Shown here: piece by piece, positions 2,529-46,704 of the stretch
How the letters are laid out: each line of letters opens with the position of its first letter
Numbering within the stretch: position 1 is the first letter of the stretch
Assembly: GCF_044324875.1 (NCBI RefSeq)
Contig: NZ_CP172185.1
DNA: 64,000 nt
Direction: 5' to 3' (one strand)
DNA from: Escherichia coli
Lineage (GTDB): Bacteria > Pseudomonadota > Gammaproteobacteria > Enterobacterales > Enterobacteriaceae
Program-made: the position numbers and the translations under genes
The notes under the pieces: generated by a model
Seen by the model: only the letters and a program-made list of their open reading frames with translations
Databases searched by the model: none
What the model was told of the DNA's origin: nothing

Positions 2529-3188
2529 ATGGCTAACTGGTTAAATCAACTGCAATCCTTGCTTGGGCAAAGCAGTTCTTCTGCCTCCTCGTCTGCGGAT
2601 CAGGGATTGGGCAAACTTTTAGTGCCAGGCGCATTAGGCGGACTGGCTGGGCTGCTGGTCGCAAATAAATCAGCACGTAAACTTCTTACGAAATATGGCA
2701 CCAACGCGTTACTGGTTGGCGGCGGAGCGGTCGCGGGTACGGTGCTGTGGAATAAATACAAAGATAAAATTCGCGCGGCGCATCAGGACGAACCGCAGTT
2801 TGGCGCGCAAAGTACGCCGCTGGATGAGCGTACGGAACGTTTGATCCTTGCGCTGGTCTTTGCCGCTAAAAGTGATGGTCATATTGATGCCAAAGAACGT
2901 GCGGCAATCGATCAGCAATTGCGTGAAGCCGGTGTGGAAGAACAGGGGCGTGTACTCATTGAGCAGGCAATCGAACAACCGCTGGATCCACAACGCCTGG
3001 CTACCGGGATTCGCAATGAAGAAGAGGCGCTGGAAATCTATTTCCTGAGCTGCGCGGCTATTGATATTGACCATTTTATGGAACGCAGTTACCTGAATGC
3101 ACTGGGTGACGCGCTGAAAATCCCCCAGGATGTTCGTGACGGCATTGAACGCGATCTCGAACAGCAAAAACGTACTTTGGCGGAATAA
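2529..3188 (+). CDS. yebE: Inner membrane protein YebE (DUF533)
   Basis: 219 aa ORF in the expected position after yebF. Confidence 0.85.
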
Positions 3189-3351
3189 TTCCGCTCTCAG
3201 GATAGCCTGAAGTTGACTATTTCGGGCTATCCAGAACCGCACAGCCATTTGAACAGGCTGATTTTCTCTGTCTGCATAACATTCGATATCCGCGCCATTA
3301 CCTGTCATCATGTGACTGCTCCCCGCCCTGTCGGGCAAGGCTTCCCACTTC

Positions 3352-4521
3352 TTAAGCCGCAACCGTCTGTGCTACGGATTTATGCTGGCCTCCATGGGCA
3401 GAAACGACGAGTCCCGCCGCTTGTAATTCCAGTATGCCCTTGCGTTTGATGTTGAGCGCCGCGTTGATATCGCGGTCATGTTCAACTCCACACTCTGGAC
3501 ACTGCCAGATGCGCTTATGTAATGGCATCTCCGACATTTTGTGACCGCAGCAGTGGCAGGTTTTCGAACTGGCGAACCATTGATCCAGTTTCACCAGATG
3601 CACACCTTTCTCTGTTGCTTTGTATTCCAGTTTTGTGATGAATCCAGACCATCCAGCATCGCCTATCGCACGAGCCAGATGGTGATTTTTCATCATATTT
3701 GCCGTTTTCAATGTCTCGACAATTACCGCTTGGTTTTCGTCAACAATTGCGCGAGATAACTTGTGCTGGAAATCGGCACGGGCACTGGCTACCCGTTCGT
3801 GAACGGCTGCAAGTTGTATTCTGGCTTTGCGCCTGTTTGCGTTCCCTTTTTTCTTACGGGACAGTGCTTTCTGCTTCCGGCGAAGGTTGCGACTTGCATT
3901 GATTAGGTGGCGGGGACTGGCAATTTTATTGCCGTCCGATTTGATGACAAAATGCGCCAGCCCCATATCCAGCCCTGTCACATTTGATATCAGTGCAGGC
4001 TTTGCCGGCGCTTCCATCCCGTCGTCACAAAGTAACGACGCGTAGTATTTCCCGGTTGCGCTGCGGCTCAACGTGATACTTTTCAGCATTCCCGTAATTT
4101 CACGATGTAAACGCGCTTCAATCGGCAAGATTTTCGGTATTTTTATCGCACCATCAAGGACTTTTATGCCAACACAATGATAGCTCGATTGTCTGCCGTG
4201 TTTACTTTTAAAGGTAGGTTTACCTGCTTTCAGTTTCGGATTGAAAAAGTTAGAAAAAGCCACGTCGAGGTTAATTACCGCCTGCTGCAACGCAATAGAA
4301 TCATATTCTTTAAGCCATCCATACCGGCGGGATTTCTTCGCCACTGCAAGCAGTGGTTTGAGGTCTTTACGCGGGTTTAAATTTACGCGGTGCCGCTGGT
4401 AAGAATGTTTCTTGATATGCAGAGCTTTGTTGTACGCAAAACGCACTGCACCGAACTGGGCGTTGATAAATTCAGCCTGTTCTGGTGTCGGGTAGATGCG
4501 TACTTTTGTTGCTCTTAACAT
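3352..4521 (-). CDS. tnpB: TnpB (IS605 OrfB family, RuvC-like RNA-guided nuclease)
   Basis: 389 aa; N-terminus MLRATKVRIYPTPEQAEFINAQFGAVRFAYNKAL typical of OrfB; putative RuvC triad residues in GLDMGLAHF, IVETLK and HDRDINAALNI; C-terminal zinc-finger cysteines CHCCGHK...CPECG. Confidence 0.85.
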   Translation of the reverse strand: MLRATKVRIYPTPEQAEFINAQFGAVRFAYNKALHIKKHSYQRHRVNLNPRKDLKPLLAVAKKSRRYGWLKEYDSIALQQAVINLDVAFSNFFNPKLKAGKPTFKSKHGRQSSYHCVGIKVLDGAIKIPKILPIEARLHREITGMLKSITLSRSATGKYYASLLCDDGMEAPAKPALISNVTGLDMGLAHFVIKSDGNKIASPRHLINASRNLRRKQKALSRKKKGNANRRKARIQLAAVHERVASARADFQHKLSRAIVDENQAVIVETLKTANMMKNHHLARAIGDAGWSGFITKLEYKATEKGVHLVKLDQWFASSKTCHCCGHKMSEMPLHKRIWQCPECGVEHDRDINAALNIKRKGILELQAAGLVVSAHGGQHKSVAQTVAA

Positions 4522-4577
4522 AATCAGCGCTCATTGATATAATGCTTTTATTTTAACACTTTAGGTAAATATATCAA

Positions 4578-5003
4578 TTGAGTAATCATGATGATTTACT
4601 GGCGGGATTTCTCCGCAAACGACACAGTGTCAGTAAGCTGGTTGTGCACCTTATTTTTACGACAAAGTATCGACGCAAACTATTCGACAGTCAGATGATC
4701 GCTCAGTTGCGTGAGGCTTTTGGCTCCGCTGCGGCAAAGCTTGAATGCGAAATTATTGAGATGGACGGGGAGCCAGACCATGTACACCTGCTGGTTGCCT
4801 ACCCGCCAAAACTGGCGGTCAGTGTGATGGTCAATAATTTAAAATCGGTATCATCACGTTTGCTACGCCAGCAGAACGCGCATTTACGTATGCAGAGTAA
4901 AACGGGGCTTTTGTGGTCGAGATCGTACTTTGTCTGTAGCACCGGAGAGGCAACGATTGAAACGCTCAGAGCCTACGTTCAGAGTCAGTCAACACCTGAT
5001 TGA
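4578..5003 (+). CDS. tnpA: IS200/IS605-family TnpA (HUH Y1 transposase); start codon uncertain
   Basis: 141 aa; motifs HLIFTTKYRRKLF, HUH HVHLL and catalytic-Tyr region SRSYFVCSTG; no in-frame ATG near the 5' end, so the ORF track used TTG at 4578. Confidence 0.75.
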   Translation: MSNHDDLLAGFLRKRHSVSKLVVHLIFTTKYRRKLFDSQMIAQLREAFGSAAAKLECEIIEMDGEPDHVHLLVAYPPKLAVSVMVNNLKSVSSRLLRQQNAHLRMQSKTGLLWSRSYFVCSTGEATIETLRAYVQSQSTPD

Positions 5004-5132
5004 TCTTTAAAGCCCTGCGGGCTTTTCGCCTTATATCCCCGCCCGCATTGGGCGAGGGTTTACGGCGTTTTTCGCTAAGCAATGACTACCCTGTTTCGCT
5101 TGCATCTCCGGTGAGTTTTGCCACCCTTATAA

Positions 5133-7879
<2,747 letters not shown>

Positions 7880-10706: not shown

Positions 10707-10792
10707 ACATTTAAGCTGATGACCACCGCGCTTTTTATTGACCATTTTGCACGCAAACTGGAAAACCTGGCGTCGTCATCTATTCTTAAAGG

Positions 10793-10895
10793 GCAAGGCA
10801 ACTAAGCCTGCATTAATGCCAACTTTTAGCGCACGGCTCTCTCCCAAGAGCCATTTCCCTGGACCGAATACAGGAATCGTGTTCGGTCTCTTTTT
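10793..10895 (+). ncRNA. sdsR: SdsR (RyeB) Hfq-dependent sRNA; antisense RyeA/SraC expected on the opposite strand across the same locus
   Basis: Recognised sequence GCAAGGCAACTAAGCCTGCATTAATGCCAACTTTTAGCGCACGGCTCTCTCCCAAGAGCCATTTCCCTGGACCGAATACAGGAATCGTGTTCGGTCTCTTTTT, ending in a terminator hairpin plus U-tract; located in the yebY-pphA intergenic region as in K-12. Confidence 0.7.
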
Positions 10896-11029
10896 ATCTG
10901 TTAAAAGCCAGAAGCATTCCCTTCGCTGACTTTATAGTCAACCATAACACACACTCTACTGTCTGAGTCCAGCGTTTTTTAACATTCTTGTTAAGATTAT
11001 GTGATCTTTAGCGCGGGAGGAAAATATTG

Positions 11030-22352: not shown

Positions 22353-23068
22353 TGCACAGAAAACCCCCAGCTAGGCTGGGGGTTCCGGAAAGCTTTCAGC
22401 TTTGAGCCAGTTATTAAAACCCCTTTTGATTTGTTAAAACACCTTGCGGTCTGGCAACTGCAAGTGTCAAACAAGTGTCAAACAAGAAATCAAAAGGGGG
22501 TCCCAATGGGGAACGAAAAGAGCTTAGCGCACACCCGATGGAACTGTAAATATCACATAGTATTTGCGCCAAAATACCGAAGACAGGTGTTCTACAGAGA
22601 GAAGCGTAGAGCAATAGGCTGTATTTTGAGAAAGCTGTGTGAGTGGAAAAGTGTACGGATTCTGGAAGCTGAATGCTGTGCAGATCATATCCATATGCTT
22701 GTGGAGATCCCGCCCAAAATGAGCGTATCAGGCTTTATGGGATATCTGAAAGGGAAAAGCAGTCTGATGCTTTACGAGCAGTTTGGTGATTTGAAATTCA
22801 AATACAGGAACAGGGAGTTCTGGTGCAGAGGGTATTACGTCGATACGGTGGGTAAGAACACGGCGAAGATACAGGATTACATAAAGCACCAGCTTGAAGA
22901 GGATAAAATGGGAGAGCAGTTATCGATTCCCTATCCGGGCAGCCCGTTTACGGGCCGTAAGTAACGAAGTTGGATGCAAATGTCAGATCGTGTGCGCCTG
23001 TTAGGGCGCGGCTGGTAAGAGAGCCTTATAGGCGCATTTGAAAAACCTCCGGCTATGCCGGAGGATAT
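22353..23068 (+). mobile_element. IS200-like insertion sequence (about 0.7 kb; boundaries approximate)
   Basis: Contains an IS200-type tnpA; 5' region has a perfect hairpin (cccccagc-tagg-gctggggg, 22364-22382) and a long stem pairing ccccttttgatttgtt with aacaagaaatcaaaaggggg that would sequester the RBS; inserted between the htpX terminator and the yebQ stop. Confidence 0.6.
22506..22964 (+). CDS. tnpA: IS200 TnpA (HUH Y1 transposase)
   Basis: 152 aa from MGNEKSLAHTRWNCKYHIVFAPKYRRQVFY; HUH motif DHIHMLVEIPPK; near-identical to Salmonella IS200 TnpA as I recall it. Confidence 0.88.
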   Translation: MGNEKSLAHTRWNCKYHIVFAPKYRRQVFYREKRRAIGCILRKLCEWKSVRILEAECCADHIHMLVEIPPKMSVSGFMGYLKGKSSLMLYEQFGDLKFKYRNREFWCRGYYVDTVGKNTAKIQDYIKHQLEEDKMGEQLSIPYPGSPFTGRK

Positions 23069-26460: not shown

Positions 26461-27129
26461 TCCTTCCTCAATCTTGAGTAACCCCGTCGTTGAAGGGTTA
26501 CTCAATTCATCCTGATTATACGCACTGTCATGGTGCAACTGCTTCAAATTAAAACTCTGGTCTGACTTCAAATAATTATCATATTATTTATTTGCGTAAC
26601 GGGATATCAGAAAAAGATATTTAGCCCATTAATTTATTAGGATGTTTACATCGGATTTGTGATTAAGCGTGGTATTATTTATTAGCGAAACGTTTCTCTC
26701 TTGATTTTTTTGCGCATTTATCAATTTTTCTTATTTTAAATTTACAATACCTTTGGCGATTGACTTCTCTTTGGGGTGATCTATAGCCGTTAACTGACTG
26801 TTTTATGAGAAAAAGTGATATAACTTTTTATTCATTGCATAGCAGAAAATGTGATATTGCACGCACTATGTAATAACTTCTCCCACTGGCCTGGAACAAC
26901 TGAACTTATTGAACTATGTTAGAAAATACGTCAGTTTAAGTATCTGCCTGAACTGGCAAGGTTAAGCACAATGATATATCGGCGCGTATTCCGTTGCATA
27001 AGTGTGCAAAAAAAGTGGAAGACGTATCGAGATTTGTGCGTCTGATCGAGACATGTTTAAAAATGGCTTGCCATAATTAACGTTGTATGTGATAACAGAT
27101 TTCGGGTTAAACGAGGTACAGTTCTGTTT

Positions 27130-27273
27130 ATGTGTGGCATTTTCAGTAAAGAAGTCCTGAGTAAACACGTTGACGTTGAATACCGCTTCTCTGCCGAGCC
27201 TTATATTGGTGCCTCATGCAGTAATGTGTCAGTTTTATCTATGTTATGCCTGCGGGCGAAGAAAACAATCTAA
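27130..27273 (+). CDS. yobF: Small protein YobF (47 aa; missed by the ORF track)
   Basis: ATG at 27130; translation [47 protein letters not shown]; ends 12 bp before cspC. Confidence 0.75.
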
Positions 27274-27285
27274 GGAATTTTTCAA

Positions 27286-27495
27286 ATGGCAAAGATTAAA
27301 GGTCAGGTTAAGTGGTTCAACGAGTCTAAAGGTTTTGGCTTCATTACTCCGGCTGATGGCAGCAAAGACGTGTTCGTACACTTCTCTGCTATCCAGGGTA
27401 ATGGCTTCAAAACTCTGGCTGAAGGTCAGAACGTTGAGTTCGAAATTCAGGACGGTCAGAAAGGTCCGGCAGCTGTTAACGTAACAGCTATCTGA
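27286..27495 (+). CDS. cspC: Cold-shock-domain protein CspC
   Basis: 69 aa [40 protein letters not shown]1/RNP2 motifs. Confidence 0.93.
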
Positions 27496-27660
27496 TCGAA
27501 TCCACTGATCTGAAGTGTGAATACGCTTCAATCTCGCTATAAAGCCTCGTCGAATGCGAGGCTTTTTACTTTGCTTTATCTTCGCTCCAGTCGTTCGGAT
27601 ATTTGCCCGCCGCGTGATTCGCGTTACACTTGCGGCCTTTAGTGTCCTGCCGGAGTTGTC

Positions 27661-44973: not shown

Positions 44974-46659
44974 TTGAAGAAGGTTTGGCTTAACCGTTAT
45001 CCCGCGGACGTTCCGACGGAGATCAACCCTGACCGTTATCAATCTCTGGTAGATATGTTTGAGCAGTCGGTCGCGCGCTACGCCGATCAGCCTGCGTTTG
45101 TGAATATGGGGGAGGTGATGACCTTCCGCAAGCTGGAAGAACGCAGTCGCGCGTTTGCCGCTTATTTGCAACAAGGGTTGGGGCTGAAGAAAGGCGATCG
45201 CGTTGCGTTGATGATGCCTAATTTATTGCAATATCCGGTGGCGCTGTTTGGCATTTTGCGTGCCGGGATGATTGTCGTAAACGTTAACCCGTTGTATACC
45301 CCGCGTGAACTTGAGCATCAGCTTAACGATAGCGGCGCATCGGCGATTGTTATCGTGTCTAACTTTGCCCACACTCTGGAAAAAGTGGTTGATAAAACCG
45401 CCGTTCAGCACGTAATTCTGACCCGTATGGGCGATCAGCTATCTACGGCAAAAGGCACGGTAGTCAATTTCGTTGTTAAATACATCAAGCGTCTGGTGCC
45501 GAAATACCATCTGCCAGATGCCATTTCATTTCGTAGCGCCCTGCACAACGGCTACCGGATGCAGTACGTCAAACCCGAACTGGTGCCGGAAGATTTAGCT
45601 TTCCTGCAATACACCGGCGGCACCACAGGTGTGGCGAAAGGCGCGATGCTGACTCACCGCAATATGCTGGCGAACCTGGAACAGGTTAACGCGACCTATG
45701 GTCCGCTGTTGCATCCGGGCAAAGAGCTGGTGGTGACGGCGCTGCCGCTGTATCACATTTTTGCACTGACCATTAACTGCCTGCTGTTTATCGAACTGGG
45801 TGGGCAGAACCTGCTTATCACTAACCCGCGCGATATTCCAGGGTTGGTAAAAGAGTTAGCGAAATATCCGTTTACCGCTATCACTGGCGTTAACACCTTG
45901 TTCAATGCGTTGCTGAACAATAAAGAGTTCCAGCAGCTGGATTTCTCCAGTCTGCATCTTTCCGCAGGCGGAGGGATGCCTGTTCAGCAAGTGGTGGCAG
46001 AACGTTGGGTGAAACTGACTGGACAGTATCTGCTGGAAGGTTATGGCCTGACCGAGTGTGCGCCGCTGGTCAGCGTTAACCCGTATGATATTGATTATCA
46101 TAGTGGTAGCATCGGTTTGCCGGTGCCGTCGACGGAAGCCAAACTGGTGGATGACGACGACAACGAAGTACCACCGGGTCAACCGGGTGAGCTTTGTGTC
46201 AAAGGACCGCAGGTGATGCTGGGTTACTGGCAGCGTCCGGATGCTACCGATGAGATCATCAAAAATGGCTGGTTACACACCGGCGACATCGCGGTGATGG
46301 ATGAAGAAGGATTCCTGCGCATTGTCGATCGTAAAAAAGACATGATTCTGGTTTCCGGTTTTAACGTCTATCCCAACGAGATTGAAGATGTCGTCATGCA
46401 GCATCCTGGAGTACAGGAAGTCGCGGCTGTTGGCGTACCTTCCGGCTCCAGTGGTGAAGCGGTGAAAATCTTCGTAGTGAAAAAAGATCCATCGCTTACC
46501 GAAGAGTCACTGGTGACTTTTTGCCGCCGTCAGCTCACGGGCTACAAAGTACCGAAGCTGGTGGAGTTTCGTGATGAGTTACCGAAATCTAACGTCGGAA
46601 AAATTTTGCGACGAGAATTACGTGACGAAGCGCGCGGCAAAGTGGACAATAAAGCCTGA
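44974..46659 (+). CDS. fadD: Long-chain fatty acyl-CoA synthetase
   Basis: 561 aa from a TTG start ([25 protein letters not shown]); AMP-binding motif [11 protein letters not shown]. Confidence 0.92.
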
Positions 46660-46678
46660 GCGTTAAGTCAGTCGTCAG

Positions 46679-46704
46679 ACGCCGGTTAATCCGGCGTTTT
46701 TTTT
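46679..46704 (+). terminator. Intrinsic terminator after fadD
   Basis: cgccgg-ttaat-ccggcg followed by tttttttt. Confidence 0.55.

What the first reader, a model, noticed from the sequence alone, without database searches (positions are those of the whole stretch)
3321..5058. Matching GC-rich hairpins near both ends of the IS605-like element (candidate TnpA recognition hairpins)
CCCCGCCCTGTCGGGCAAGG at 3321-3340 and CCCCGCCCGCATTGGGCGAGGG at 5037-5058 share the motif CCCCGCCC-loop-GGGC-(A/G)AGG on the same strand, each just outside a transposase gene. IS200/IS605 elements are excised and inserted through subterminal hairpins recognised by TnpA, so these likely mark the functional ends and put the element at roughly 1.75-1.8 kb.
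Basis: seen in the sequence. Interest (0 to 1): 0.45.

Follow-up and report, generated by a model that had tools for sequence, protein, structure and literature searches.

The report
Transposase-binding hairpins of insertion sequence ISEc46
The two matching GC-rich hairpins are real and are the DNA hairpins just inside the two ends of a known 1,763-bp E. coli jumping gene (ISEc46, IS200/IS605 family), where its transposase is expected to bind, so the finding is correct but ordinary.

Summary
CCCCGCCC-loop-GGGC(A/G)AGG occurs exactly twice in the 64-kb window, at 3321-3340 and 5037-5057(58), with 0 expected by chance.

An IS-free E. coli K-12 locus places the element at window 3312-5074, 1,763 bp, with no target duplication. 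Both hairpins lie inside it and are missing from the empty site, so they are not native terminators.

RefSeq names the element ISEc46. It carries an intact Y1/HUH tnpA and a divergent tnpB.

The active ("top") strand is the window minus strand. The left end (LE) is therefore at 5074 and the right end (RE) at 3312.

In about 55 independent copies from other gammaproteobacteria the stem is invariant, including a T·G wobble, while the loop varies. The LE flank always ends in TTAG, and every RE ends in TCAC.

The IS608 guide rule predicts both cleavage sites from the 4 nt 5' of each hairpin: AAAC gives TTAG, and GAAG gives TCAC.

The RE hairpin also lies in a covarying fold that is probably the 3' part of the TnpB guide RNA.

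Three smaller points stand out:
- This copy has a private stem substitution at 3337.
- Its active strand sits on the disfavoured leading-strand template.
- Its LE hairpin is enclosed by a covarying outer helix.

Verdict: already known and low interest.

The parts
3312..5074 (-). Complete ISEc46 element (IS200/IS605 family), 1,763 bp, with no target-site duplication. The top (active) strand is the window minus strand.
   Evidence: The K-12 empty site reads ...CCTGTCATCAT|CTAAGCAATGAC..., and the filled site has the insert exactly between 3311 and 5075. A second copy at another locus in strain WEC has the same ends. RefSeq annotates the tnpA of identical copies as an 'ISEc46 family transposase'.
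5075..5078 (-). Flanking target and left cleavage site C_L: 5'-TTAG-3' on the top strand (CTAA on the plus strand). It is not part of the element. It is also the predicted TAM for TnpB.
   Evidence: TTAG immediately precedes the conserved LE in 54 of 55 distinct flanks (one has TGAG), and positions further out show no conservation. It is also present in the empty K-12 site.
5058..5061 (-). Left guide G_L: 5'-AAAC-3' on the top strand, immediately 5' of the hairpin foot.
   Evidence: It is nearly invariant in 36 distinct LE sequences; one copy has ACAC. Under the IS608 pairing rule (G1:C-3, G2:C-4, G4:C-1; PMC5934647) AAAC predicts TTAG, which is what is observed.
5037..5057 (-). Left-end subterminal imperfect palindrome IP_L. 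The top strand reads CCTCGCCC-AATGC-GGGCGGGG, an 8-bp stem with a T·G wobble.
   Evidence: The motif match is and the fold. In 36 distinct relatives 99% of stem cells are paired, the T·G is present in 36 of 36, and the loop varies in sequence and in length (3-7 nt). There is one compensatory C-G to T-A change, and every one-sided change gives T·G or G·T on this strand.
5027..5067 (-). Outer helix (5027-5030 CGCC pairing with 5064-5067 GGCG) that encloses IP_L, G_L and the conserved ATATAA in an internal loop.
   Evidence: It is predicted. It covaries in relatives: GC 25 / CG 11 at one pair, and CG 19 / GC 11 / UA 5 at the next. In 0 of 500 shuffles was the covariation score reached, and slid registers collapse.
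5009..5025 (-). Second LE hairpin (AAAGCCC-TGC-GGGCTTT) between the tnpA stop and IP_L. On the plus strand it is followed by a T-run, so it could terminate tnpA.
   Evidence: The fold is. Relatives carry a hairpin of different sequence at the same place. IS608 has a comparable second hairpin at +46 to +60 (PMC5934647). Covariation was not counted formally because the alignment register shifts.
4578..5003 (+). tnpA, a Y1 HUH transposase of 141 aa.
   Evidence: NCBIfam NF033573 gives 141.8 bits against a cut-off of 55. It matches IS608 TnpA (2a6m, E 5e-19) and ISDra2 TnpA (2xm3, E 6e-15). The HUH motif (DHVHL) and the C-terminal Tyr (LRAYVQSQ) align with those of the best structural match, 2ec2.
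3352..4521 (-). tnpB, an RNA-guided endonuclease of 389 aa.
   Evidence: NCBIfam NF040570 gives 339.7 bits against a cut-off of 100, over the full length. RefSeq calls it an 'RNA-guided endonuclease InsQ/TnpB family protein'.
3341..3344 (-). Right guide G_R: 5'-GAAG-3' on the top strand, immediately 5' of the IP_R foot.
   Evidence: GAAG is present in 16 of 17 distinct RE sequences, and one has GGAG. The IS608 rule predicts TCAC from GAAG, which is what is observed.
3321..3340 (-). Right-end subterminal imperfect palindrome IP_R. The top strand reads CCTTGCCC-GACA-GGGCGGGG. The consensus is CCTCGCCC; this copy has a private C-to-T change at window 3337 (A on the plus strand).
   Evidence: The same stem is found in 17 distinct REs with loops of 3 to 18 nt. 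The best E. coli matches all have G at 3337. The variant costs about 2.3 kcal/mol (-6.1 versus -8.4).
3312..3315 (-). Right cleavage site C_R: 5'-TCAC-3' on the top strand, the last 4 nt of the element, 9 nt from the IP_R foot.
   Evidence: Every RE in relatives ends in AGCAGTCAC and is followed by unrelated flank. The boundary is fixed by the empty site.
3312..3422 (-). Probable 3' part of the TnpB guide-RNA (omega/reRNA) scaffold. It overlaps the tnpB 3' end and the RE and ends with the IP_R stem.
   Evidence: RNAalifold on 13 relatives gives 35 pairs, 10 of them with compensatory changes, and a covariation term of -4.31. The position matches the origin of the ISDra2 reRNA (PMC8612924). No Rfam family matches. 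Expression was not tested.
3296..3311 (-). Flank that would supply the roughly 16-nt guide of the omega RNA (top strand ATGATGACAGGTAATG...).
   Evidence: This is inferred from the ISDra2 model. In the empty K-12 site the sequence follows TTAG directly, which is the predicted TnpB target (the donor joint).
4515..4577 (.). Divergent promoter-like sites in the tnpB-tnpA spacer: 4515-4543 on the plus strand, and 4577-4550 on the minus strand.
   Evidence: These are consensus matches of 11/12 and 10/12. They are pattern matches only.

Best explanation
The two hairpins are the subterminal imperfect palindromes IP_R (3321-3340) and IP_L (5037-5057) of a complete copy of the known insertion sequence ISEc46 (IS200/IS605 family, divergent tnpA/tnpB). 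This copy is inserted between yebE and ptrB.

Proposed mechanism, by analogy with IS608:
- When the window's minus strand becomes single-stranded, both palindromes fold into 8-bp hairpins with a T·G wobble.
- Each hairpin is bound by one site of a TnpA dimer.
- The four bases 5' of each foot act as DNA guides. AAAC at the left end pairs with the flanking TTAG, and GAAG at the right end pairs with the terminal TCAC.
- The catalytic tyrosine cuts 3' of TTAG (between 5075 and 5074) and 3' of TCAC (between 3312 and 3311).
- This releases a single-stranded circle and reseals the donor as TTAG|ATGATG.
- The circle re-inserts 3' of another TTAG in single-stranded DNA, without target duplication.

The right-end hairpin is probably also the last stem of the TnpB guide RNA. 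That RNA would target TTAG plus the flank, in other words the emptied donor site.

What is shown: the exact ends, the absence of duplication, conservation of the hairpins at both ends, the invariant TTAG and TCAC, guide-to-site complementarity, and intact genes. What is inferred: folding in vivo, TnpA binding, cleavage, circle formation, and production and use of the guide RNA.
For: - The ends are fixed, and both hairpins are absent from the IS-free locus. A second copy elsewhere has identical ends.
- The motif occurs twice in the window, with 0 expected by chance.
- TnpA and TnpB are confirmed as family members and are intact.
- In 36 distinct LE and 17 distinct RE sequences from other genera, the stem is invariant, the T·G is present in every sequence, and the loops vary. 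There is one compensatory change, and all one-sided changes are wobble-compatible only on the minus strand.
- TTAG is present in 54 of 55 distinct LE flanks, and nothing else in the flank is conserved. All REs end in TCAC.
- In IS608, GL AAAG goes with CL TTAC and GR GAAT with CR TCAA, through the pairings A+16:T-3, A+17:T-4 and G+19:C-1 (PMC5934647; PMC3201880). The same rule turns ISEc46's AAAC into TTAG and GAAG into TCAC. The fourth position therefore covaries between the two elements at both ends.
- The foot-to-cut distances are 17 and 9 nt, against 19 and 10 nt in IS608.
- The bases 3' of each foot are AT at LE and AG at RE, the same as the triplet-forming A+42/T+43 and A-10/G-9 of IS608.
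- The region next to the RE shows a covarying RNA-like fold. Its position matches the ISDra2 reRNA.
Against: - There is no biochemical or in vivo evidence for ISEc46 itself. No paper in the searched library describes its ends; some searches found only catalogue mentions.
- Because the stem hardly varies, covariation support for the inner hairpin rests on a single compensatory change.
- On DNA energy parameters the LE hairpin is about as stable on the plus strand (-8.9 kcal/mol) as on the minus strand (-8.8). The strand assignment therefore rests on the TTAG/TCAC geometry, the tnpB orientation and the wobble pattern.
- This copy has a weakened RE stem (3337).
- Its active strand appears to lie on the leading-strand template, which is the disfavoured orientation for IS608 and ISDra2. 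This particular copy may therefore move rarely or not at all.
Confidence: 0.9

Rival explanations
1. The hairpins are native transcription terminators: of yebE on the left, and of the region upstream of ptrB on the right. On this reading they existed before the insertion.
For: Both are GC-rich stem-loops in intergenic DNA. On the plus strand the right-hand structure is followed by TTTTT at 5068-5072.
Against: K-12 and about 5,000 other E. coli genomes have the IS-free locus, a 288-bp match with no CCCCGCCC or GGGCGGGG. Both hairpins travel with the element to other loci and to other genera. The terminator scan flags neither one. The left-hand hairpin has no T-run on either strand. The native inverted repeat downstream of yebE is a different one, at 3200-3232.
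Confidence: 0.01
2. The hairpins act only as RNA elements, not as single-stranded DNA signals for TnpA. On this reading the right-end hairpin is a stem of the TnpB guide RNA, and the left-end hairpin plus the outer helix and U-run is the tnpA terminator.
For: The right-end hairpin sits inside a covarying RNA-like fold at the tnpB 3' end. On the tnpA sense strand the left-end composite stem is followed by a T-run in this copy and by TTTTG in many relatives.
Against: This does not explain why two RNAs transcribed from opposite strands would share one identical stem sequence on the same DNA strand. It does not explain the invariant TTAG flank and TCAC terminus. It does not explain why the 4 nt 5' of each foot predict those sites under the IS608 rule. 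The invariant T·G would be a C·A mismatch in the tnpA-sense RNA. A dual role, DNA signal plus RNA element, remains likely and is part of the best explanation.
Confidence: 0.04
3. The hairpins are REP/BIME-type repeats served by a REP-associated tyrosine transposase (RAYT), not the ends of an insertion sequence.
For: REPs resemble IS200/IS605 subterminal hairpins (PMC3333891, listed). TnpA gives a weak hit to the RAYT model.
Against: The RAYT model scores 39.1 bits against a cut-off of 80, whereas the IS200 model scores 141.8 against 55. There are only two copies in 64 kb, both inside one mobile unit that is present or absent as a block. A tnpB gene is present, as in the IS200/IS605 reference elements ISDra2 and IS608.
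Confidence: 0.01
4. The ends are genuine ISEc46 ends, but this particular copy is effectively immobile, a fixed relic of one E. coli lineage, so the hairpins no longer function here.
For: The 3337 substitution is private to this copy and adds a second T·G next to the first, costing about 2.3 kcal/mol. The active strand lies on the G-rich strand's complement, which is the leading-strand template. The same insertion is shared by 400 of 5,426 complete genomes, which suggests long residence.
Against: Both genes are intact, both guides and both cleavage sites are intact, and TTAG is retained. The same C-to-T stem variant occurs in the LE of two Photorhabdus copies. The orientation bias is a preference, not an absolute rule.
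Confidence: 0.15

Closest known systems
ISEc46 (ISfinder/RefSeq name; IS200/IS605 family)
   Same: It is the same element. Copies in other E. coli genomes at this site and elsewhere are 99.1-99.9% identical over the element and its flanks, and RefSeq annotates their tnpA as an 'IS200/IS605-like element ISEc46 family transposase'.
   Different: This copy differs from its nearest relatives only at 3337 (in the RE stem) and at 3372-3373. I could not read the ISfinder entry, so I cannot say whether its recorded ends and target agree with 3312/5074 and TTAG.
IS608 of Helicobacter pylori (mechanistic paradigm)
   Same: - Both have a Y1 HUH TnpA (PDB 2a6m, E 5e-19).
- Both have subterminal imperfect palindromes at both ends and cause no target duplication.
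- Both insert 3' of a tetranucleotide next to LE.
- Both have a 4-nt guide 5' of each foot that follows the same pairing rule.
- Both have AT (LE) and AG (RE) 3' of the foot, a second small hairpin inside LE, and similar spacings.
   Different: - tnpA and tnpB are divergent here, whereas in IS608 they point the same way.
- The target is TTAG rather than TTAC, and C_R is TCAC rather than TCAA, with matching guide changes (AAAC, GAAG).
- The linkers are 17 and 9 nt rather than 19 and 10.
- The stem imperfection fits a T·G wobble register here, whereas IS608 is drawn with an extrahelical T.
- A covarying outer helix encloses IP_L and G_L here. I found no description of one for IS608.
ISDra2 of Deinococcus radiodurans
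   Same: It belongs to the same family and shares a TnpA homologue (2xm3, E 6e-15). Its TnpB uses an RNA derived from the tnpB 3' end, the RE and about 16 nt of flank, and its TAM equals the transposon target. The RE region here has a covarying fold in the corresponding place.
   Different: ISDra2 uses a pentanucleotide target (TTGAT), and its genes partly overlap in the same orientation. The ISEc46 guide RNA and TAM have not been tested.
REP/BIME repeats with RAYT transposases
   Same: These are GC-rich hairpins thought to be recognised by a Y1 HUH enzyme as single-stranded DNA.
   Different: They are high-copy, scattered, non-autonomous repeats. Here there are only two copies, bounding one autonomous element, and TnpA scores below the RAYT cut-off.

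Membership tests
IS200/IS605 family insertion sequence | Encodes a small Y1 HUH transposase (TnpA) | tested here: met
   NF033573 scores 141.8 bits against a cut-off of 55. It is homologous to solved IS608 and ISDra2 TnpA structures, and the HUH motif and catalytic Tyr align with the best structural match, 2ec2.
IS200/IS605 family insertion sequence | No terminal inverted repeats; instead, subterminal imperfect palindromes near both ends on the same strand | tested here: met
   The hairpins lie at 3321-3340 and 5037-5057, which is 9 and 17 nt inside the mapped ends. They are on the same strand and have the same stem.
IS200/IS605 family insertion sequence | Insertion without target-site duplication, with precise presence/absence | tested here: met
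   The empty K-12 site reads CATCAT|CTAAGC, and the filled site has 1,763 bp inserted exactly there with no duplicated or lost base.
IS200/IS605 family insertion sequence | Insertion 3' of a conserved tetra- or pentanucleotide that abuts the left end | tested here: met
   TTAG abuts LE in 54 of 55 distinct flanks from many genera, with no other conservation in the flank.
IS200/IS605 family insertion sequence | Cleavage sites recognised by 4-nt guide sequences 5' of each hairpin foot (the IS608 rule) | tested here: met
   At the level of sequence, AAAC predicts TTAG and GAAG predicts TCAC, and both are observed. Physical pairing was not tested.
IS200/IS605 family insertion sequence | Strand-specific TnpA binding and cleavage, and a single-stranded circular intermediate | not testable with these tools
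   This needs EMSA and cleavage assays, or junction PCR. The only indirect support is that the T·G and all one-sided stem changes are pair-compatible only on the minus strand.
IS200/IS605 family insertion sequence | Active strand on the lagging-strand template (a statistical preference, not strictly defining) | tested here: not met
   The window plus strand corresponds to the K-12 minus strand at about 1.91 Mb and is G-rich (skew +0.019), so it is the lagging-strand template. The active strand is the minus strand. This is a single copy, and the replichore is inferred from the K-12 map.
TnpB guide RNA (omega RNA / reRNA) scaffold | Structured RNA encoded by the tnpB 3' end plus the RE on the tnpB sense strand, ending at the transposon boundary | tested here: inconclusive
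   There is a covarying fold with 35 pairs, 10 of them with compensatory changes, in the 111 nt that end at the RE. No Rfam model matches, and no expression data are available.
Rho-independent terminators native to the yebE-ptrB locus | Present in the locus independently of the IS | tested here: not met
   Both hairpins are absent from the IS-free locus, and neither is called by the terminator scan.
REP/BIME-RAYT system | A RAYT-type transposase and many dispersed solo REP copies | tested here: not met
   NF047646 scores 39.1 bits against a cut-off of 80. The motif occurs only twice in 64 kb, both times inside the IS.

The most novel reading that the evidence does not exclude
In the ISEc46 clade the left-end TnpA hairpin and its DNA guide sit inside an internal loop closed by a 4-5-bp outer helix (window 5027-5030 pairing with 5064-5067). 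This helix covaries across genera. I found no description of such a helix for IS608 in the papers read. It could be a new structural element that pre-organises the guide/target docking platform, or that gates access to it. Because a T-run follows it on the tnpA sense strand, it might also double as the tnpA terminator, coupling end recognition to transposase expression.
Probability: 0.3. Interest if true: 0.3.

Novelty: already known. Interest (0 to 1): 0.12.

Why it matters
The main value is for annotation.
- It fixes the exact ends (3312 and 5074), the active strand, the target (TTAG) and the guide and cleavage sequences of ISEc46. About 7% of complete E. coli genomes carry this element at the yebE-ptrB site.
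- It shows that the IS608 guide rule transfers to a divergent-gene family member with different sites.
- It gives a testable TAM (TTAG) and scaffold region for an E. coli TnpB.

None of this changes what is understood about the family.

Tried and rejected
- **Rfam.** A permissive scan of 3000-5400 found no RNA family. The whole-window scan found only unrelated sRNAs.
- **Terminator reading.** The terminator scan flagged neither hairpin, and the empty site lacks both, so the native-terminator reading was rejected.
- **REP/RAYT reading.** Rejected on model score and copy number.
- **T-bulge register for the LE stem.** This is the ViennaRNA minimum-energy fold. It would make the guide TAAA, which predicts TAAT rather than TTAG, and it is broken by the L047 double change. 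I therefore prefer the 8-bp T·G register, though only weakly.
- **Strand assignment from hairpin energy.** This was inconclusive for LE (-8.8 versus -8.9 kcal/mol).
- **Second LE hairpin.** Formal covariation counting was not possible because the alignment register shifts between clades.
- **Literature.** Searches for ISEc46 ends, or for TnpB with a TTAG motif, found only catalogue mentions or nothing.
- **Related plasmid match.** One plasmid match at 85.6% identity turned out to be a truncated tnpA-plus-LE remnant.
- **Whole-window scans.** Repeat and tRNA scans added nothing relevant.
Full report
**Observation**

CCCCGCCCTGTCGGGCAAGG lies at 3321-3340 and CCCCGCCCGCATTGGGCGAGGG at 5037-5058. 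The pattern CCCCGCCC-N3-8-GGGCRAGG matches only these two places in the 64-kb window on either strand. None of 100 dinucleotide-preserving shuffles gave any match. Each folds as a hairpin in single-stranded DNA.

The two flanking ORFs are:
- a 389-aa TnpB (3352-4521, minus strand), scoring 339.7 bits on NF040570;
- a 141-aa Y1 HUH TnpA (4578-5003, plus strand), scoring 141.8 bits on NF033573.

TnpA is homologous to the solved IS608 and ISDra2 transposases. Its HUH motif and C-terminal tyrosine align with those of the best structural match, 2ec2.

**Where the element ends**

A megablast against 5,426 complete E. coli genomes shows that almost all have the yebE-ptrB locus without the insert. About 450 records carry the element, whose tnpA RefSeq annotates as an 'IS200/IS605-like element ISEc46 family transposase'.

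The IS-free K-12 locus reads ...CCTGTCATCAT|CTAAGCAATGAC.... The window has 1,763 bp inserted exactly at the bar, at 3312-5074, with no duplicated or missing base. The K-12 locus contains no copy of the hairpin stem.

A second copy at an unrelated locus in strain WEC has identical ends. Both hairpins belong to the mobile DNA, 9 nt and 17 nt inside its ends.

**Which strand and which end**

tnpB is on the minus strand, and its 3' end faces the 3312 end. Read on the minus strand, the two ends are:
- the 5074 end: 5'-...GCTTAG|CGAAAAACGCCGT-AAAC-[CCTCGCCC AATGC GGGCGGGG]-ATATAAGGCG...
- the 3312 end: ...GTGG-GAAG-[CCTTGCCC GACA GGGCGGGG]-AGCAG-TCAC|ATGATG...

On this strand the imperfection in each stem is a T·G wobble. 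In family terms, the left end (LE) is the window's right-hand end, and the active 'top' strand is the minus strand.

**Comparative evidence**

I fetched 72 loci encoding TnpA relatives, mostly gammaproteobacteria (Photorhabdus, Serratia, Shewanella, Vibrio, Idiomarina, Endozoicomonas, Halomonas and others). Most of their TnpAs are 57-99% identical to this one.

- **Stems.** The same stem is present next to tnpA and next to tnpB in these loci, while the loops differ in sequence and length (3-7 nt at LE, 3-18 nt at RE).
- **LE pair counts.** In 36 distinct LE sequences, 99% of inner-stem cells pair and the T·G is present in 36 of 36. One sequence has a compensatory C-G to T-A change. Every one-sided change gives T·G or G·T, which pairs only on the minus strand.
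- **LE flank.** Immediately outside LE the flank reads TTAG in 54 of 55 distinct flanks (one has TGAG). Positions further out show no conservation.
- **RE terminus.** Every RE ends in AGCAGTCAC and is followed by unrelated DNA.

**Fit to the IS608 mechanism**

In IS608 the cleavage sites are read by 4-nt guides 5' of each hairpin foot, not by the protein. GL AAAG goes with CL TTAC, and GR GAAT with CR TCAA. The known pairings are A+16:T-3, A+17:T-4 and G+19:C-1, and the third guide base inserts into the protein. The cuts lie 19 nt (LE) and 10 nt (RE) from the foot (PMC3201880; PMC5934647).

Applying that rule to the 4 nt 5' of the ISEc46 feet gives AAAC to TTAG and GAAG to TCAC. These are exactly the observed flank and terminus. 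Relative to IS608, only the fourth guide base differs at each end, and the cleavage-site base changes to match.

Other features also correspond:
- The spacings are 17 and 9 nt.
- The two bases 3' of each foot are AT (LE) and AG (RE), as in IS608, where they form base triplets.
- A small second hairpin lies inside LE (5009-5025), as in IS608.

I take this as strong sequence-level support that the hairpins work as TnpA recognition hairpins. Binding, cleavage and circle formation remain inferred.

**Additional layers**

*Outer helix.* The LE hairpin, its guide and the conserved ATATAA are enclosed by an outer helix (5027-5030 CGCC with 5064-5067 GGCG). This helix covaries in relatives: GC 25 / CG 11 at one pair, and CG 19 / GC 11 / UA 5 at the next. 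In 0 of 500 shuffles was the covariation score reached, and slid registers collapse. On the tnpA sense strand a T-run follows it, so it could also act as a terminator. I found no description of such a helix for IS608 in the papers read.

*Guide-RNA scaffold.* The 111 nt that end at the RE on the minus strand give a consensus fold with 35 pairs, 10 of them with compensatory changes. The RE hairpin is the last stem of that fold. This is where the ISDra2 TnpB guide RNA comes from: the tnpB 3' end, the RE and about 16 nt of flank, with a TAM equal to the transposon target (PMC8612924). By inference, the ISEc46 TnpB would use TTAG as its TAM and ATGATGACAGGTAATG... as its guide. That combination is exactly the sequence of the emptied site. 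No Rfam family matches the region.

**Peculiarities of this copy**

- **Distribution.** The left junction is present in 400 of 5,426 complete genomes.
- **Private substitution.** None of those genomes matches the 120-nt junction perfectly. The best matches differ at 3337, where they and all relatives have G. The A at 3337 is therefore private to this copy. It turns a C-G pair of the RE stem into a second T·G and costs about 2.3 kcal/mol. The same variant exists in the LE of two Photorhabdus copies, so it need not be inactivating.
- **Orientation.** The window plus strand corresponds to the K-12 minus strand at about 1.91 Mb and is slightly G-rich. The active strand therefore appears to lie on the leading-strand template. 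That orientation is disfavoured for excision and insertion of IS608 and ISDra2 (PMC5027513). Both points suggest, but do not show, that this copy is relatively immobile.

**Rivals**

- Native terminators are excluded by the empty site and by the terminator scan.
- An RNA-only role cannot explain why both ends share one stem on the same DNA strand, or the TTAG/TCAC geometry.
- REP/RAYT repeats are excluded by copy number and by the model score, 39.1 bits against a cut-off of 80.

**Verdict**

The element is a catalogued insertion sequence, and its hairpins behave as the family model predicts. The finding is therefore already known and of low interest. The covarying outer helix at the left end is the only feature that may not have been described before.

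Noticed in passing
window 3337: There is a private A (C-to-T on the active strand) in the right-end hairpin stem. All of the best-matching E. coli copies and all relatives have G here. The change adds a second T·G wobble and weakens the hairpin by about 2.3 kcal/mol.
   Followed up: partly
window 3312-5074 relative to the whole window: The element's active strand is the complement of the G-rich strand (GC skew +0.019), and the locus maps to the K-12 left replichore. The active strand therefore appears to lie on the leading-strand template, which is the orientation disfavoured for IS608 and ISDra2.
   Followed up: partly
window 5027-5030 with 5064-5067: An outer helix encloses the left-end hairpin and its guide. 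It covaries across genera. A T-run follows it on the tnpA sense strand, so it may also act as a terminator.
   Followed up: partly
window 3312-3422, minus strand: A covarying multi-helix fold (10 pairs with compensatory changes) overlaps the tnpB 3' end and the right end. It is probably the TnpB guide-RNA scaffold. No Rfam family matches it.
   Followed up: partly
window 3200-3232: A native inverted repeat, GGATAGCC...GGCTATCC, lies just downstream of the yebE stop. It is also present in the IS-free K-12 locus, apart from a single base in its loop, so it is the locus's own hairpin and is unrelated to the IS.
   Followed up: no
window 5075-5159: The IS sits 86 nt upstream of the ptrB start and 123 nt downstream of the yebE stop. 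It therefore separates ptrB from most of its native upstream region. The effect on ptrB expression is unknown.
   Followed up: no
L030 3447-3509 (Idiomarina loihiensis SN11): One copy has two left-end hairpin units in tandem, 43 nt apart.
   Followed up: no
L005 and L010 (Photorhabdus), downstream of tnpA: In these copies the left end is cut inside the hairpin. The 5' arm is replaced by unrelated DNA, leaving only ...AATGCGGGCGGGG. These copies are probably immobilised.
   Followed up: no
L017 and L035, right ends: The right-end hairpin loops are expanded to 18 nt and 9 nt, and the longer one could form its own small stem. The 8-bp stem is unchanged in both.
   Followed up: no
L077 2398-2678 (E. 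coli plasmid NZ_OZ546942.1): A truncated tnpA plus left-end remnant, 85.6% identical to the window element, sits among other IS fragments on a 132-kb plasmid.
   Followed up: no
window 10755-10899, 22362-22496, 27110-27570, 46618-46703: Rfam gathering-threshold matches are unrelated to the finding: SraC/RyeA overlapping SdsR/RyeB, STnc490, the cspA thermoregulator, and sroD.
   Followed up: no
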